Shown piece by piece: positions 39,537 to 57,155 of a stretch of 64,000 bases of DNA. The notes beneath the pieces were generated by a model. It searched no databases and was not told the origin of the DNA. It worked only from the letters and a program-made list of their open reading frames with translations. Made by a program: the position numbers and the translations under genes. Numbering within the stretch: position 1 is the first letter of the stretch; each line of letters begins with the position of its first letter. Source of the DNA: Methanotrichaceae archaeon (lineage in GTDB: Archaea; Halobacteriota; Methanosarcinia; Methanotrichales; Methanotrichaceae); NCBI GenBank assembly GCA_963803145.1, contig CAWDLW010000018.1, positions 1 to 64,000 on the forward strand. Direction: 5' to 3'.

Positions 39537-40708
39537 GGTAGTCTACCTATTTCATGTTGCTCCCGTCTGGAACCACGACATTCATAAGGATTTCTTTTAT
39601 AGTCCAAATATGATCAGTCAAACCTGCAGCCATAGCTGGAGATCTTTGCGTCCAGCGTCGCTTTGATTCTGCTGAATCGATTCGTAACGACTTGTTAGGC
39701 CTGGCCAAATTATAAACCCAATCTTCCCAGGCACAAGAAACCCTATGCATCTCGATCTCTTTAGAGAAAGAAATGGTCTTTCTAACAAATCGCCCATTCA
39801 TCTGTCTGGATGTTAGATGAGTCCTCTCGATATAGGCAGTATGGGTGCCCATTAGATCACAGACCCCTTTCGTATCACCAAAGACAACTTTGTAGTGGAT
39901 ACTAACAAGATGCCCTCCAGATCGTGTTTTGATTATCTGAATGCATTTCCAATCAGGCTCAGACTTCTTTCGAGTAGGCGGTCTTCCTCTACCAGAGTAT
40001 TCAGGTACTTTCCCCCAAGTCTCGAGCATGGCCTCCGGATAACTATCATAGCCATCAGTAGCGATAGCAGGAGGTTTATCCGGATTACCACGAGCCTTCA
40101 ACTGGGCCATCAATTCCATAGAGACTTCGCTTTCACTCTTCCTGATTGACCGCCCAACTCTAAGGCGAGTATCCATATCTATCGTTGTACCGCGCCAGAA
40201 GCTACCACGATCGTTCTCTTCTGGATAGCCCCCTTTTCGCCTTTATTTCCTACGTATGACCACATAGCATCCAGTTGAACACGAGTCAGTTTATAGTTTG
40301 CAAGCATTAGAGCCTCTAGCTCTTCAACGTGGCTAGCTGCTTCGTGAAGCCAATCCATAACTGTTTCTTCTTTAATCCCCATAACCCGATGGATGGATGC
40401 CAGACTATTGCGTTCGGCCAGCAAGGCTAAGCATTTTAGAATTGTATCCTGGCTATGATGGCGACCATAGAATACTGTACCTATGTTTTCAACGAATGTC
40501 TTCCCACAGGTCTTACATCGATAGCGTTGTGTTCCTTTGGCGGTTCGGCCAAATTTTATGATGTTTTCATTTTTTACTTTGCAATAGTCGATACACTCTT
40601 GGTTCCAGCAAAACGTGCTTGGAGGAACCAATTGTTCATTCATCATTGTATTCCTCCAATTATATGATTGCAGTTGATAATATAACAACTTATCTAAGGT
40701 AGACTACC
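39537..40708 (-). mobile_element. IS1-family insertion sequence
   Basis: 12-bp IRs GGTAGTCTACCT; 8-bp TSD CACAATCA at 39529-36 and 40709-16. Confidence 0.9.
39547..40646 (-). CDS. IS1-family transposase (InsA/InsB, probable -1 frameshift)
   Basis: CWNQEC...QRYRCKTCGKTF Zn finger + HTH, QLDAMWSYV; AAAAGGGGG near 40230; TDGY..Y, TAYIER, SPAMAAGLTDHIW. Confidence 0.85.
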
Positions 40709-42286: not shown

Positions 42287-42868
42287 TTAAGTTCTTGATA
42301 ATGGATTGAATCCACGTATATCATATGCCTCCTTCACCAGCACAGGGGCTATGGAAGCATAAACCTCTGTTGTAGAGAGCCTCTTGTGACCCACCTGCTT
42401 CTGGATCATAGGCAAAGGCACGCCGCCCATCAAAGCTGAGACTATATGGCTATGCCTGAGTATATGTGGAGTAACCTTTTTCCTGTTGAGCTTCATCCTG
42501 GGCGAAACCTCCTGGACCCCGGCCTCCTTTGCCAGGCGGTCTATGGTTCTCAGCACTGTTTTGGTGCTAAGGTGCCCAGAGCTTCTGCCAGGAAACAGCC
42601 ATTCTTGCCCAGGCTTGATGCTATCTTGGATGGCCTCTAAGGTGGTCTGGCTCATCCTAACAGCCCTGAAATGCTTTGTCTTCGTTCTGCTGCTCTCGAT
42701 CCTTATGAATCCGTTTTGAAAATCGATATCTGAGACTCTATTAGTAACTAGTTCACCGACTCTGCAGCCCATGTCGTAAAGGCAGAGTAGGATAAATCTG
42801 TCTCTACCCTTGGCCACAGAAAATAGGGCCTCTATTCCTATAGTGTCTAGGTACTTGATGGAGTCCAT
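42287..42868 (-). CDS. tyrosine recombinase/integrase, catalytic domain only
   Basis: R (GCRVGEL), K (TKTK), HILRH, GH and Y (TTEVY) all present in 193 aa. Confidence 0.92.
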   Translation of the reverse strand: MDSIKYLDTIGIEALFSVAKGRDRFILLCLYDMGCRVGELVTNRVSDIDFQNGFIRIESSRTKTKHFRAVRMSQTTLEAIQDSIKPGQEWLFPGRSSGHLSTKTVLRTIDRLAKEAGVQEVSPRMKLNRKKVTPHILRHSHIVSALMGGVPLPMIQKQVGHKRLSTTEVYASIAPVLVKEAYDIRGFNPLSRT

Positions 42869-42902
42869 CCGAGGGCTATATTTACGTTGCCTCTATATAA
42901 CG

Positions 42903-42931
42903 ATGTCTCTTTTCTAGTACAAAAGAGACAT
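42903..42931. promoter_or_regulatory. perfect 11-7-11 palindrome upstream of the recombinase (putative core site/operator)
   Basis: ATGTCTCTTTT-CTAGTAC-AAAAGAGACAT, next to a minus-strand TATA (TTATATAG). Confidence 0.65.
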
Positions 42932-42939
42932 TTTCATCT

Positions 42940-43263
42940 AGGTACTAAGCGACGTTTGACCTAGAGCCTCATTTTTCATCTTTTGAGCCTTCTGCACGGC
43001 TGCTTTGGCATCCATCTTCCTGTAGCGGTCCCAGATTGACATTCAGCACCTCGGAACCTTCTCGCCACGAGACCATCCTGTAGGCAAAGGTCTTGAGCCC
43101 TTCTTTAAGGTCTTCTCCTTCTGCCATATCTGCAGGGCCCCAAGCCTGGCAGTATTTTTCTAGGCCTCAGCCGTGAGTCTATCCATCTCATCCTGCCTCA
43201 TCCTTCTTGCAGGCTTCATCTGCCTAGTCTTGTTATGGCCTTAGATTCTCTCTTCTGCTTCAT
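42940..43263 (-). pseudogene. frameshifted small basic protein (EKTLKKG..TFAYRMVSWREG..V.NVNLG..RKMD...A.QKA.KMK.EALG)
   Basis: Hand translation across frameshifts; ends are approximate. Confidence 0.45.
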
Positions 43264-43400
43264 GGCCGCTTTCTTTTTGTGGTTTAGATTGTTGTGATGT
43301 ATCAATGTAATTTCTGAGTTCCATTATAATCAGAAATTTACCTTGGGCTTAAAGCCAATTTAATCCTACCAACAAGTGTATATTCTAAAATGATTAGATA

Positions 43401-43888
43401 GTTATTGCCGCGAAATAGGGCTGTAGCCGATTAAGCTTCGGGGGCAGTATGTCACCTCCAATGGAGCGCCTCGCTTAACAGCGAAGTCTTCGGTGAAAGC
43501 GAATTAAGGCATACATCGTTCAGTTCGTATATAAGCGCGGCAAGTAACGTCGTGTGCAGGCAAGGTGAGAGCAGGCTCTTCATCTTCGATGAAAGGGTCC
43601 CCGTAAGAAAGGCGCTGTGCCAGATACCAGTGCTGTCTCGCATTGCCTGTGTGAAGGCACGGGGCGGGCTTAAAATCGCCACTACGGTGGTTGATTCCTC
43701 TGAGGAGGGCGCTGTGAGTCAGCGTTTGGCTCGCCTAAAACTTCACAGTACTATTCTCTTGGGTATATTCTGGGTTTTGATGTTCGCTTACTGGTAATTG
43801 CCAGGCAATGCAATCGGTATGCTGCCTACAGATATGTTTTTGATAAAAGTGTTTACGTGCGGGGGATGAGATTCTCGCACCTTTTTTT
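43401..43888 (+). ncRNA. putative large structured non-coding RNA (unknown family)
   Basis: Three nested multibranch domains, many G-U pairs, a cUACGg tetraloop, a possible pseudoknot, TATA-like sequence ~20-25 bp upstream, terminal hairpin + T7. Confidence 0.6.
43788..43888 (+). repeat. upstream element U, copy 2 (hairpin + T7, terminator-like)
   Basis: TTACTGGTAA...GCCTACAG...GTGCGGGGGATGAGATTCTCGCAC-CTTTTTTT. Confidence 0.7.
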
Positions 43889-44015
43889 GGCTTAACAATT
43901 TATGCCAGAAGAGCACATATAACAGTCTGACGTTTAGGTGCTGGGAGCAACATTATATGCAATAGACCCCTTTCTGACCATAATTGATATAACGTTTGAA
44001 TATCTATCCAAATAT

Positions 44016-44921
44016 ATGAAAAATATTGAAATGTTCTATCTATTATCTTTGATAGCATTACTGCTTGTAGTCTCTTCTTTTGGAGCACTAGCAGAACCAA
44101 ATACATCTGTAAACATGAATACCACGGCTCTAAAAGAACTGGTGATAAATTCAGAGAACAACTTAAAATCCTATAGTTTAAACCTGTCTGAAAATGAAAA
44201 CATAATGCTCATCAACTCCACGAGCCACAATACGACGTCTCGGGTCAACATACAGACTCTAGGGGCCATCGCTATCAATCGCACCAGCAAATCAGCGAAG
44301 GCAGTCACTGCCTCCCTCGTCCTGCCGATAGGAGATGTGGTGGATGCTGCTACCATATCGACAGAAGTATACTATATCAATGATACTTTATATAGCGAGG
44401 TTGACGGAAATTGGACTGCGATGAAGCTGGCTTTGCCCGGAGCCTTTGGAACCAATCAGGACATGATTAGACAAACTGCGATGCTATTGAATGCATCCAC
44501 TATCAGACTTATCGGTATTGAGGCCATAAACGGTGAAAAGTATTACGTTGTGGAGATATCTCCTCAAAGTAGTGCTATCTCTTCCCTTTTCAAACAGGAG
44601 ACTGGTTCTATCAGCTCTATGATCCCCCAGAGCATCGAGAACCTCAGTCATCTCTTCAACAATATTCAGCTCAGATATATCACCTGGATAAATACAGCCA
44701 GCTATCTCCCAGTGCAGGAGTTTGCCATTGTAAACATCACGACCACGCCAGGAATGCTCGGCTATCCGGGAGGGAATAGCACGGAAGTCTACATCAACTC
44801 TTCCATTACAACGAGGTTCAGCGATTTGAATAAGACAATAAATATAATGTTGCCTGAGGCTGCAAAGAGGGCAGAGATGTTGCCTTTAAACAGCTCCGGC
44901 ACGCCACTGGCAATACCTTAA
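44016..44921 (+). CDS. secreted LppX/LprA-like (DUF6612-like) protein
   Basis: Signal peptide; EVYYINDTLY..VDGNW, GIEAING...Y.VEI, WIN..SYLP, FSDLN..I.I.LP; many NxS/T sequons. Confidence 0.65.
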   Translation: MKNIEMFYLLSLIALLLVVSSFGALAEPNTSVNMNTTALKELVINSENNLKSYSLNLSENENIMLINSTSHNTTSRVNIQTLGAIAINRTSKSAKAVTASLVLPIGDVVDAATISTEVYYINDTLYSEVDGNWTAMKLALPGAFGTNQDMIRQTAMLLNASTIRLIGIEAINGEKYYVVEISPQSSAISSLFKQETGSISSMIPQSIENLSHLFNNIQLRYITWINTASYLPVQEFAIVNITTTPGMLGYPGGNSTEVYINSSITTRFSDLNKTINIMLPEAAKRAEMLPLNSSGTPLAIP

Positions 44922-44977
44922 GTCCAGAGGATCAGCAGAAAATAAAAATGATCGAGAGTAGGGCCATATTTGCCCAA

Positions 44978-45085
44978 GTATGTATAACCTGATTCCAGCC
45001 CACCTTATTTTCCAACGACTATAGGGCTGGAAACAATTTTATAAACATCTTTCTGAGCTACAAATGCGTTGGGTCTGCGCTCCAG
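44978..45085 (+). repeat. downstream element D, copy 2
   Basis: GTATGTATAACCTG...TTTTATAAACATCTTTC...TGCGCTCCAG. Confidence 0.75.
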
Positions 45086-45164: not shown

Positions 45165-45497
45165 TTAATGCCGCCCACTCTGATACCTTCGCCGATAAAG
45201 CGCCTCTTGTGCCGTCCTCACTTCAGGCAGCAGCTGCAATGCCCTTTTCTCCAAATCCACAAGCAAATTCCAACTCTCGCCCATCATATCAGCAATCTGC
45301 GCTTCTGCGAACCCAACCGATTGCAAGTTGAGGTACTCCTCTATTGCCGCTTCTGCTGCGGACTGTCCCGGCACATCCAGTTCATCCAGCGCCCTGCCAA
45401 GTGCCAAAGCCTGCACGCTATCCTCATCCAGCACGCCGGCCTTCAGCATCCCTGCCTTCAGAAGTACTGCACGTCGCTCAAGCGCCCTTAGGTTCAT
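45165..45497 (-). CDS. hypothetical protein (provirus-like)
   Basis: 110-aa ORF with GGAGGG RBS; no recognised motif. Confidence 0.5.
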   Translation of the reverse strand: MNLRALERRAVLLKAGMLKAGVLDEDSVQALALGRALDELDVPGQSAAEAAIEEYLNLQSVGFAEAQIADMMGESWNLLVDLEKRALQLLPEVRTAQEALYRRRYQSGRH

Positions 45498-45936
45498 CCA
45501 TTCCCTCCACGATAGACAATCGCTCTTCCAGATCTTCTAGCTTACCCAGTTCATAGCTTCTATACAGATATGCAGTAAATTCATAGCCCATCTCTTCGCC
45601 TATAAGTACGATAGAGGTGCATTTAGTTCTATGATAAGTTGTCTATTGCCTAAAATCAAGTGAGGCATAGGCCAACAATCTGGATTTTAACCCAGATCCC
45701 CTTTTACAGGGATTCCTATCGCCCGAAAGCGATAGATTACTTCACCTATGCCTCAAGCAATATATTGCACCCTAATTTATTTATAATTGTTGGTAGATAA
45801 TATCATCAGAGACTATCGTATTAGCTCTGATAGCGAGGAAGATGCCTTATGTAACTTAGTACGGGATTCTCTTCAATCAAAAGGCTATCAGGTAGCATGT
45901 TATCAGCCATCGTAAATAATTCTTATAGTATTACAA

Positions 45937-56909: not shown

Positions 56910-57155
56910 TCAAACATCTGGCTTATACCCCTGTGGCTCATTCACAGGTTCTATAGTGGCTATGGCATGCTTGAAGACAAGGATTTGCCCTTTAGCGGTT
57001 TGGATCAGGAGCTCATAGGGGTTGAAAGCCTCTAGGATTCCGGTAATTGGCTGTCCTCCTGATAGTAGGCGTATCATGACCTTCTTGCCCTTAAGTTTGG
57101 GGATGAATTCAAATTGCTTCAGTACAGGCTTTGCTTTCGCTGAATCTTCTTCCAT
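56910..57155 (-). CDS. Hfq-like Sm-fold protein
   Basis: Sm1 (V.IRL.SG..I.G.LEAF..YELLI) with short loop and Hfq-type Sm2 LVFKHAIATI; GGAG RBS. Confidence 0.8.
   Translation of the reverse strand: MEEDSAKAKPVLKQFEFIPKLKGKKVMIRLLSGGQPITGILEAFNPYELLIQTAKGQILVFKHAIATIEPVNEPQGYKPDV

What the first reader, a model, noticed from the sequence alone, without database searches (positions are those of the whole stretch)
43401..43888. Unannotated large, densely folded RNA transcribed divergently from a tyrosine recombinase
Seen: a GC-richer stretch with no credible ORF folds almost entirely into nested helices. Domain 1 is closed by GTTATTGCCGCG (43401-12) with CGCGGCAAGTAAC (43536-48). Inside it is a cloverleaf-like 4-way junction: GTATGTC/GGCATAC, CTCC/GGAG, TCGCT-TAAC-AGCGA, and TTCG-GTGAAAG-CGAA with a 7-nt T-loop-like loop. 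Domain 2 is closed by GCAGGCAA..TGAGA/TCTCG..TTGCCTGT and holds hairpins GCTCTTCATC/GATGAAAGGGT and GGCGCTG/CAGTGCT; CCCCGT or CTGTGCC can pair with GGCACGGGG downstream (possible pseudoknot). Domain 3 is closed by GGCGGGC/GCTCGCC and holds AATCGCCAC-TACG-GTGGTTGATT (cUNCGg), TCCT/AGGA and GGCGCTG/CAGCGTT. TGTGAAG/CTTCACA also pair. The many G-U pairs favour a plus-strand RNA. A TATA-like sequence lies ~20-25 bp upstream, and a hairpin + T7 lies at 43857-43888. Inference: a mobile-element-encoded ncRNA of a family I do not recognise, possibly working with the neighbouring recombinase or the island's Hfq-like protein.
Basis: partly seen in the sequence, partly recalled or inferred. Interest (0 to 1): 0.82.

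Follow-up and report, generated by a model that had tools for sequence, protein, structure and literature searches.

The report
New structured RNA family in Methanothrix relatives
The stretch is a real gene for a roughly 350-base, heavily folded non-coding RNA from a large, undescribed RNA family found only in some acetate-using methanogens, and it is not tied to the neighbouring recombinase.

Summary
Window ~43400-43750 (+) folds better than all 100 shuffles (z -3.88) and has no Rfam match.

BLAST finds it in 53 of 105 genomes of the same family. On 29 homologs, 95.7% of cells pair against 33-45% when partners are slid, and 24 of 106 pairs change on both sides.

A conserved archaeal promoter precedes it. 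The hairpin+T7 at 43857-43888 lies outside the conserved RNA.

Contigs of four metatranscriptome studies cover only 43416-43736, at high depth.

It has three domains: a stem-closed 5' domain and two four-way-junction modules. A model of the two modules hits 77 of 105 family genomes, 1-13 times each, and 0 of 76 and 0 of 150 genomes outside the family. Paralogs include one fixed upstream of hsp20 and a ~100-nt single-module RNA at window 45633-45760 (-).

In 21 loci no neighbouring protein recurs. The recombinase is a fragment. Hfq-like genes are family-wide.

Function is unknown. My best guess is an abundant trans-acting scaffold RNA.

The parts
43306..43339 (.). Inverted repeat (AATTTCTGA..TCAGAAATT) upstream of the promoter. 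It is shared with the two other type A copies of this genome and stands alone at four other places in it. It is not conserved in other genomes.
43368..43399 (+). Conserved archaeal promoter block: a BRE-like CCAACAA (CCGAAAAC in most homologs), a TATA-like GTGTATAT, and an imperfect palindrome TCTAA-N5-TTAGA at 43384-43398. The hsp20-linked paralog has nearly the same block.
   Evidence: alignments; homology with other genomes starts at 43365-43374. The transcription start is inferred, not mapped.
43401..43750 (+). The type A RNA itself, about 350 nt
   Evidence: homology limits; fold z -3.88; covariation; RNA-library contigs at 43416-43736 only
43401..43548 (+). Domain 1, closed by P1 (43405-43412 with 43536-43543, extended by GTTA/TAAC). 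It holds the invariant GCCGATTAAG and GTCTTCGG motifs and a variable insert at about 43440-43462.
   Evidence: (helices 1-6)
43556..43650 (+). Domain 2: a four-way junction. Closing stem GCAGGCAA/TTGCCTGT and an inner stem; hairpin A TCATC/GATGA; hairpin B CCC-loop-GGG with a GTAAGAA loop; hairpin C GCGCTG/CAGTGC.
   Evidence: helices 7-11; helices 1-8
43651..43746 (+). Domain 3: a four-way junction at 43662-43736 (closing stem GGGCGGG/CTCGCCT, a UACG-loop hairpin, a UGAG-loop hairpin, and hairpin GCGCTG/CAGCGT), clamped by the long-range helix GTGAAG/CTTCAC.
   Evidence: helices 12-16; helices 9-13
43756..43888 (+). Non-conserved tail with hairpin+T7 (43857-43888). 43780 onward belongs to a separate repeat that precedes paralogs of the DUF6612 gene. 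It is not part of the conserved RNA.
42287..42868 (-). Tyrosine recombinase fragment (catalytic domain only). The adjacency is not conserved.
45633..45760 (-). Single-module relative: a ~100-nt four-way junction of the D2 type, with a TATA-like TTATAAATAA about 25 nt upstream and a T-run after it.

Best explanation
Window ~43400-43750 (+) is a stand-alone gene for an abundant ~350-nt structured non-coding RNA, which I call type A. It belongs to an undescribed, multi-copy RNA superfamily found only in part of the Methanotrichaceae.

Shown:
- Its own conserved BRE/TATA-type promoter block.
- Three domains: a stem-closed 5' domain, then two four-way-junction modules, the second clamped by a long-range helix.
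- Selection on base pairing.
- Presence in RNA libraries limited to the conserved core.
- No recurring neighbour gene.

Inferred:
- It acts in trans as a stable scaffold RNA. Its invariant loops and junctions (GAUUAAG, GUCUUCGG, the A-rich loops of D2, the UGAG and UGRAU loops of D3) would hold one or more proteins.
- Its synthesis is regulated through the palindrome between the TATA box and the start of the RNA.
- A stress or proteostasis role is a weak lead only. One paralog is fixed beside hsp20, and one sits before an M48 (HtpX-type) protease gene.

The recombinase next door is a chance neighbour.
For: Structure:
- 106 pairs in 16 helices on 29 homologs: 95.7% of cells paired against 33-45% when partners are slid. 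24 pairs change on both sides, against 7-12 slid and 12.3+-2.1 shuffled; 0 of 500 shuffles reach this.
- On 64 sequences of four paralog types fitted to model R1: 93.2% paired against 39-48% slid. 42 of 62 pairs change on both sides, against 13-23 slid; 0 of 500.
- Core fold z -3.88.

Not coding.

Conservation and range:
- BLAST: 53 of 105 family genomes.
- R1: 77 of 105 family genomes, 11 of 16 genera.
- R1 outside the family: 0 of 76 genomes of four other families of the class and 0 of 150 in a phylum sample.
- A D1 pattern hit 21 stretches among 185,579 species genomes: 20 titled Methanotrichaceae, Methanothrix or Methanosaeta and one 'uncultured Methanosarcinales'.

Own promoter: the block is conserved from about 30 nt before the RNA and is nearly the same in the hsp20-linked paralog.

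Expression:
- Contigs of four RNA-library studies cover 43416-43736, with summed depth up to about 3000 in a 142-million-letter run. Cover is zero at 43100-43405 and 43746-44100, and some contigs have no mismatch.

Stand-alone gene:
- In 21 loci of +-6 kb no neighbouring protein family recurs. Downstream genes lie on either strand.
- Homology between loci is confined to the RNA plus 20-240 nt upstream.

Stress lead:
- All 18 full hsp20-type copies sit 115-130 nt upstream of an Hsp20 gene, which has its own promoter.
- A larger paralog precedes a Peptidase_M48 gene.
Against: - No partner protein, target or ligand was identified. The scaffold role is an inference from abundance, structure and invariant loops.
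- The RNA evidence comes from assembled contigs of metagenomic RNA libraries. These cannot show strand, ends or level. The empty flanks could mean only that strains with other flanks were present.
- Many contigs start at 43416-43418, inside the span closed by P1. Depth falls after about 43655. One contig joins 43653 back to 43419. The mature species may therefore differ from the 350-nt model.
- Linkage to hsp20 may be mere inherited synteny. The other paralogs lie by unrelated genes: MC1, amidase, MFS, Prim-Pol.
- The alignment was fitted to the model and so leans towards it.
Confidence: 0.5

Rival explanations
1. The four-way-junction module is a sensor (riboswitch-like aptamer or protein-binding leader). 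Type A would then act in cis on the gene downstream, here the DUF6612 gene 43938-44921.
For: - Single-module relatives have their own TATA box and sit closely upstream of ORFs on the same strand in this genome. Clear cases: MFS, 75 nt; a 100-aa ORF followed by an amidase; and window ORF 45165-45497.
- Tandem homologous modules recall tandem riboswitches (recalled).
- In the window the next gene is on the same strand, 190 nt away.
Against: - In the 21 type A loci the next gene lies on either strand and belongs to no common family.
- The hsp20 gene behind the hsp20-type RNA has its own BRE/TATA and a short leader, and a T-run follows the RNA.
- RNA contigs stop at the end of the RNA.
- No ligand theme appears among the neighbours.
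Confidence: 0.12
2. It is the RNA of a mobile element, for example a guide or bridge RNA for a recombinase or transposase, or a non-autonomous element that is merely transcribed.
For: - It is multi-copy. R1 gives 14 hits in the own genome at E up to 0.01 (13 at the stricter setting) and 1-13 per genome in the family.
- Type A loci share only the gene and its promoter even at about 90% RNA identity.
- In the window it sits among an integrase fragment and IS1-like pieces.
- In this genome a 582-bp unit is copied into another context.
Against: - No recombinase, TnpB/IscB or reverse transcriptase recurs beside it in 21 loci.
- I saw no terminal repeats or target duplications in the alignments.
- There were 0 pattern hits in viral contigs.
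- The hsp20-type paralog keeps one syntenic position across genera.
- Strong compensatory change shows selection on the RNA fold itself.
Confidence: 0.08
3. It is a ribozyme or a processed or circular RNA whose active form is D1-D2 only.
For: - Contig starts at 43416-43418 in three runs, one of them with an adapter tail.
- A fall of depth after about 43655.
- One back-joint from 43653 to 43419.
- Size and invariant unpaired bases are in the range of large ribozymes (recalled).
Against: - The back-joint is a single contig. Paralogs share D2-D3, which tangles assemblies.
- P1 covaries, so its 5' strand must be in the folding transcript.
- No ribozyme family matches.
Confidence: 0.08
4. It is a known stable RNA (RNase P, SRP, tRNA-like or intron fragment) too diverged for the models.
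For: Its size and junction-rich fold resemble these RNAs.
Against: - Bona fide RNase P RNA (3 hits at 208-215 bits) and SRP RNA (181 bits) genes lie elsewhere in the genome.
- ARAGORN finds no tRNA or tmRNA at the locus.
- Rfam e-value scans of the locus and of paralog loci gave only chance-level or no matches.
Confidence: 0.03

Closest known systems
Large bacterial ncRNAs of unknown function (OLE, GOLLD, ROOL, raiA motif); resemblance recalled, membership tested through Rfam only
   Same: They are several hundred nucleotides long, multi-domain, strongly covarying, lineage-restricted and abundant, form their own transcription unit, and were found by comparative analysis with no obvious function.
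   Different: This RNA is archaeal and has a BRE/TATA promoter. It matches none of their Rfam models. It has many paralogs per genome built from a reusable four-way-junction module. It shows no phage link.
Archaeal RNase P RNA and SRP (7S) RNA
   Same: They are stable, abundant archaeal RNAs of about 300 nt with multi-helix junctions.
   Different: Separate genuine genes for both exist in this genome. No model matches. Copy number and position vary between genomes.
tRNA-like modules in other RNAs (tmRNA, bacterial Y RNA YrlA); recalled
   Same: D2 and D3 are cloverleaf-like: a closing stem plus three hairpins.
   Different: ARAGORN finds no tRNA or tmRNA. Hairpin lengths and loops are unlike D, anticodon and T arms. 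There is no CCA-type end. Ro60 linkage was not examined.
Guide RNAs of mobile elements (IS110 bridge RNA, IscB/TnpB omega RNA); recalled
   Different: Those RNAs are defined by a fixed partner gene. Here no partner recurs in 21 loci, and the recombinase is a fragment.
Tandem riboswitches such as the glycine riboswitch; recalled
   Same: There are two homologous junction modules in tandem, and single modules stand upstream of ORFs.
   Different: No ligand or gene theme is apparent. Type A has downstream genes on either strand. It has its own promoter, and the RNA end lies before the next gene's promoter.

Membership tests
Any Rfam 15 family (4227 models) | A covariance-model score at or above the family's gathering score | tested here: not met
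   - 0 matches in the whole window.
- At E up to 10 in 42800-44400 there were 4 matches of 15-19 bits with E 1.7-6.6, all far below gathering.
- 0 matches on 6 paralog loci.
- 0 matches at E up to 0.1 on 4 more loci.
Archaeal RNase P RNA (RF00373) | A match to the model, and being the genome's RNase P RNA | tested here: not met
   The model hits C9, C38 and C17 at 208-215 bits, not this locus.
Archaeal SRP RNA (RF01857) | A match to the model | tested here: not met
   The single hit is at C34:22164-22479, 181 bits.
tRNA / tmRNA | A cloverleaf with canonical arms, or a tag peptide, as detected by ARAGORN | tested here: not met
   0 genes in L009, which spans the RNA.
Mobile-element guide RNA (bridge RNA, omega RNA) | Constant adjacency to its recombinase or nuclease gene | tested here: not met
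   In 21 loci of +-6 kb, all-against-all BLASTP of the ORFs gave no recurring neighbour. The largest real cluster covers 7 loci at scattered positions and is a repeat protein that looked TPR-like by eye.
Mobile-element guide RNA (bridge RNA, omega RNA) | A variable guide segment next to a constant scaffold | not tested
   The sequence after ...TCAC varies between loci, but no target matching was attempted.
Cis-regulatory leader / riboswitch | A fixed position upstream of, and on the same strand as, a coherent set of genes | tested here: not met
   For type A, downstream genes lie on either strand and are unrelated. This is inconclusive for the single-module relatives.
Protein-coding gene | A conserved open frame with third-position variation | tested here: not met
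   The + ORF has stops in 27 of 28 homologs. The minus-strand frames give variable columns of 24/21/15 and 37/47/43 by codon position.

The most novel reading that the evidence does not exclude
The D2-type four-way junction is a reusable sensing or binding module. Methanothrix-type methanogens would use it singly (~100-nt RNAs next to genes) and in tandem inside abundant 350-520-nt RNAs. The superfamily would then be an archaeal RNA-based sensing and regulation system, or an RNA-protein or RNA-only assembly, with no counterpart in bacteria. It may respond to stress, given the paralogs beside hsp20 and an HtpX-type protease gene.
Probability: 0.15. Interest if true: 0.9.

Novelty: categorically new. 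Interest (0 to 1): 0.74.

Why it matters
Large structured RNAs with unknown jobs are rare, and almost all described ones are bacterial. This one is an archaeal superfamily with up to 13 copies per genome. It has strong evidence of selection on its fold. Contigs matching it reach very high summed depth in soil, sediment and wetland RNA libraries.

Its hosts belong to the Methanotrichaceae. By background knowledge, not tested here, members of this family are acetate-using methanogens that contribute much of the world's biogenic methane.

The family offers a tractable object for structure work (cryo-EM, SHAPE) and for finding protein partners. It is also a possible handle on regulation in organisms that are hard to study genetically. 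Practically, the gene should be annotated so that its spurious ORFs are not called as proteins.

Tried and rejected
Known-family checks
- Rfam at gathering and at loose E-values, on the locus and on paralog loci: nothing usable.
- RNase P and SRP identity: rejected, because separate genes exist.
- tRNA or tmRNA: none.

- Recombinase link: rejected.
- Hfq link: an Hfq-like gene is in the window, but Hfq-like genes are family-wide. LSM genes lie on other contigs.
- Coding reading: rejected.

Methods that fell short
- The tool's plain RNAalifold run gave a poorer topology, with 73 pairs. RNAalifold with ribosum scoring was used instead.
- MAFFT misaligned the D2 closing stems between paralog types. 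The model-fitted alignment A4 was therefore used for cross-type counts, with that caveat.
- A BLAST search for the single-module RNA reached only 4 of 105 genomes. I did not build a separate single-module model, so the module could exist outside the family unseen.
- The viral-contig pattern scan found 0.

Literature
- Five searches. Methanothrix + 'non-coding RNA' and Methanosaeta + ncRNA: listings only, nothing relevant. A six-term search with min_terms 2 was badly designed and uninformative. Methanosaeta + 'small RNA' and archaea/structured noncoding RNA/metatranscriptome/methanogen: listings only.
- From PMC13153191 I read the passages found by term search. It concerns a bacterial group I intron and does not mention this RNA.
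- The statement that the family is not in print rests on these searches and on Rfam only. Subscription journals and supplements were not seen.

Other limits
- Parts of the laid stretch without cover (flanks; D3 in three runs) are noted, but they are not proof of absence.
- Raw reads were not available, so ends, strand and the back-joint could not be checked.

Full report
**What is in the sequence**

The stretch 43400-43799 is richer in G+C (0.51-0.53) than its flanks (0.355 at 43200-43399; 0.305-0.41 at 43800-44199).

The minus strand gives -131.8 with z -1.44. Cut to the part that proves to be conserved (43401-43750), the plus strand gives -136 kcal/mol, z -3.88, with 0 of 100 shuffles as good.

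Rfam 15 has no match. The whole window gave 0 matches at gathering scores. At E up to 10 there were only four chance-level matches of 15-19 bits in 42800-44400.

**Copies and limits**

In the window's own genome the stretch recurs twice:
- at 95% identity on contig C2, matching window 43305-43886;
- at 82-87% on C11, matching 43308-43755.

Window 43780-45000 is a different repeat. It is the upstream region plus a DUF6612 gene, and it recurs on C1 and C46.

Across the family, BLAST finds the RNA in 53 of 105 genomes and 7 of 16 genera, at 66-82% identity over the full length. Homology always begins at window 43365-43390, which is the promoter block, and ends at 43746-43764.

So the RNA is about 43400-43750. 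The hairpin+T7 at 43857-43888 is not part of the conserved unit.

**Structure**

I aligned 29 full-length homologs (A2). RNAalifold with ribosum scoring gives 106 pairs in 16 helices. Counted on A2:
- 95.7% of cells are standard pairs, against 33-45% when the 3' partners are slid by 1-3 columns;
- 24 pairs change on both sides, against 7-12 slid and 12.3+-2.1 in shuffles (0 of 500 reach it).

The architecture:
- P1 (43405-43412 with 43536-43543) closes domain 1.
- Domain 2 (43556-43650) is a four-way junction with three hairpins.
- Domain 3 (43662-43736) is a second four-way junction, clamped by GTGAAG/CTTCAC (43651-43656 with 43741-43746).

The exceptions:
- GTATGTC/GGCATAC and CTCC/GGAG sit in an insert that 15 of 29 homologs lack.
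- TTCG/CGAA competes with two consensus helices.
- Neither proposed pseudoknot is supported.

Many commonest pairs are G-U. With the energy gap between strands, this fits a plus-strand RNA.

**Not coding**

The + ORF 43552-43797 has in-frame stops in 27 of 28 homologs. The minus strand keeps open frames of 74-116 codons in many homologs. But variable columns are spread 24/21/15 (close group) and 37/47/43 (all sequences) over codon positions 1-3. That shows no coding signature.

**Promoter**

A block reading CCGAAAAC-TGTATTATC-TATAACGATTAGATAG in most homologs precedes P1 by a few bases. In the window it reads CCAACAAGTGTATATTCTAAAATGATTAGATAG. It contains an imperfect palindrome, TCTAA-N5-TTAGA (43384-43398). 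The hsp20-linked paralog has almost the same block at the same distance from its P1. The transcription start is inferred from this layout, not mapped.

**Expression**

Of 24 public runs listed, 20 hold part of the stretch, and 9 of those are RNA libraries. I laid four RNA runs from four studies.
- Contigs cover 43416-43736 only. Cover is zero at 43100-43405 and at 43746-44100.
- Summed word depth reaches about 3000 in a run of 142 million letters and about 1100 in another.
- Several contigs match without any mismatch.
- A 349-nt contig in a third run matches the hsp20-type paralog and ends at ...TCAC, the same 3' boundary.

These are contigs, so strand, ends and level are not shown.

Three points stay unexplained:
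- many contigs begin at 43416-43418, one of them with an adapter tail;
- depth falls after about 43655;
- one contig joins 43653 back to 43419.

**A superfamily**

Short, very similar matches to domain 3 at other loci led to paralogs.

- *The hsp20-linked type (type B).* It has the same P1, the GCCGATTAAG and GGTCTTCGG motifs, D2 and D3, but a larger domain 1. In all 18 full copies among the 26 loci fetched, it lies 115-130 nt upstream of, and on the same strand as, an Hsp20 gene. This includes the own genome on C35. That gene has its own BRE/TATA and a short leader, and a T-run follows the RNA.
- *A third type (type C).* Eight other fetched loci form a third syntenic type.
- *Model R1.* A covariance model of D2-D3 (R1; 198 positions, 62 pairs) finds 14 places in the own genome:
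  - three type A copies;
  - one type B copy;
  - six larger RNAs with a 5' domain of about 260 nt (type D);
  - four single-module RNAs of about 100 nt, one of them in the window at 45633-45760 (-).

R1 hits 77 of 105 family genomes (43 of 64 high-quality ones; 11 of 16 genera), 1-13 times per genome. Outside the family it hits 0 of 76 genomes of four other families of the class and 0 of 150 other genomes in a phylum sample.

On 64 sequences of types A-D fitted to R1, 93.2% of cells pair, against 39-48% slid. 42 of 62 pairs change on both sides, against 13-23 slid. This alignment leans towards the model.

A D1 pattern found 21 stretches among 185,579 species genomes. Twenty are titled Methanotrichaceae, Methanothrix or Methanosaeta, and one 'uncultured Methanosarcinales'. 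Viral contigs gave none.

**Neighbours**

In 21 type A loci with +-6 kb, no protein family recurs beside the RNA. The largest real cluster covers 7 loci at scattered positions. It is a repeat protein that looked TPR-like by eye; I did not test it. The two clusters nearest the RNA are spurious ORFs that overlap it.

Homology between loci is limited to the RNA plus 20-240 nt upstream and at most 134 nt downstream, even at about 90% RNA identity.

In the window:
- the ORF 42287-42868 (-) is only the catalytic half of a tyrosine recombinase, and the frame upstream is broken;
- IS1-like pieces lie at 39547-40688;
- an Hfq-like gene lies at 56940-57086 (-). Hfq-like genes are in 92 of 105 family genomes, including genera that mostly lack the RNA.

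Genes downstream of other paralogs in this genome are Hsp20, Peptidase_M48, MC1, an amidase, an MFS transporter and a LigD Prim-Pol.

**What it is not**

Genuine RNase P RNA (three hits) and SRP RNA genes lie elsewhere in the genome. ARAGORN finds no tRNA or tmRNA at the locus. Rfam finds nothing on paralog loci.

**Reading**

Shown:
- a conserved, structure-selected, non-coding gene with its own promoter;
- presence at high depth in RNA libraries;
- membership of a modular, multi-copy RNA superfamily restricted, among the genomes searched, to part of one methanogen family.

Inferred:
- It acts in trans as a stable scaffold for protein(s) through its invariant loops and junctions.
- It is regulated at its promoter.
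- A stress link is only a lead.

The rivals are cis-acting sensor, mobile-element RNA, and ribozyme or circular RNA. None is excluded, but each has evidence against it, given in the Rival explanations section.

**Novelty**

No Rfam family matches. Five literature searches gave nothing on it: I saw the listings, and passages of one paper. I therefore treat it as a new RNA class. This rests on those searches only.

Noticed in passing
window 45633-45760 (-): A ~100-nt single-module relative of domain 2. It has a closing stem TGAGGCATAGG/CCTATGCCTCA, three hairpins, a TATA-like TTATAAATAA about 25 nt upstream and a T-run after it. ORF 45165-45497 (110 aa, no Pfam hit) follows on the same strand. 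Similar RNAs lie at C14:1460, C42:46591, C20:66225 and C12:20808. BLAST finds it in only 4 of 105 family genomes.
   Followed up: partly
G000 contig C35:5448-5880 (-), L044/L111: The hsp20-linked paralog (type B) has a larger domain 1. It sits 115-130 nt upstream of an Hsp20 gene in all 18 full copies examined, across several genera. Its promoter block is nearly the same as that of type A.
   Followed up: yes
G000 contig C18:129339-131001 (outside the window), L112/L115: Two larger paralogs (type D, about 500 nt, 5' domain of about 260 nt) flank a gene for the chromatin protein MC1. Another type D copy precedes a Peptidase_M48 (HtpX-type) gene at C11:82302-83183.
   Followed up: partly
G000 contigs C9:3971-4272, C38:46773-47074, C17:254301-254602: The assembly has three full RNase P RNA genes (208-215 bits; two with identical scores). 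It is 4.13 Mb with 6.77% contamination. It may mix strains or carry duplicated contigs, so copy numbers in this genome should be read with care.
   Followed up: no
window 43306-43339: The inverted repeat AATTTCTGA..TCAGAAATT lies upstream of the RNA promoter. It also stands alone at C12:35087, C16:49530, C17:239671 and C3:3937. Its role is unknown (terminator, operator or small repeat element).
   Followed up: no
window 43780-45000: The upstream region plus the DUF6612 secreted-protein gene (43938-44921) recurs at 87% identity on C1:2425-3674 and C46:6973-8221. The upstream part alone recurs on C23 and C25.
   Followed up: no
window 39547-40688 and 42287-42868: Mobile-element debris: two adjacent ORFs with weak IS1-transposase and HTH matches, and a tyrosine recombinase reduced to its catalytic domain.
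   Followed up: partly
window 43416-43655 (RNA-library contigs): Contig starts pile up at 43416-43418, depth falls after about 43655, and one contig joins 43653 back to 43419. This may be a processed or circular D1-D2 species, or an assembly artefact among paralogs.
   Followed up: no
window 56940-57086 (-): An Hfq-like ORF (Pfam Hfq, 36.7 bits). Such genes are present in 92 of 105 genomes of the family. In several genomes one lies 2-10 kb from an R1 hit on the same contig. I did not analyse this proximity.
   Followed up: partly
L026:2703-2905 and L027:2600-2801: In two genomes a second, diverged D2-D3 RNA lies about 1 kb downstream of the type A gene on the same strand.
   Followed up: no
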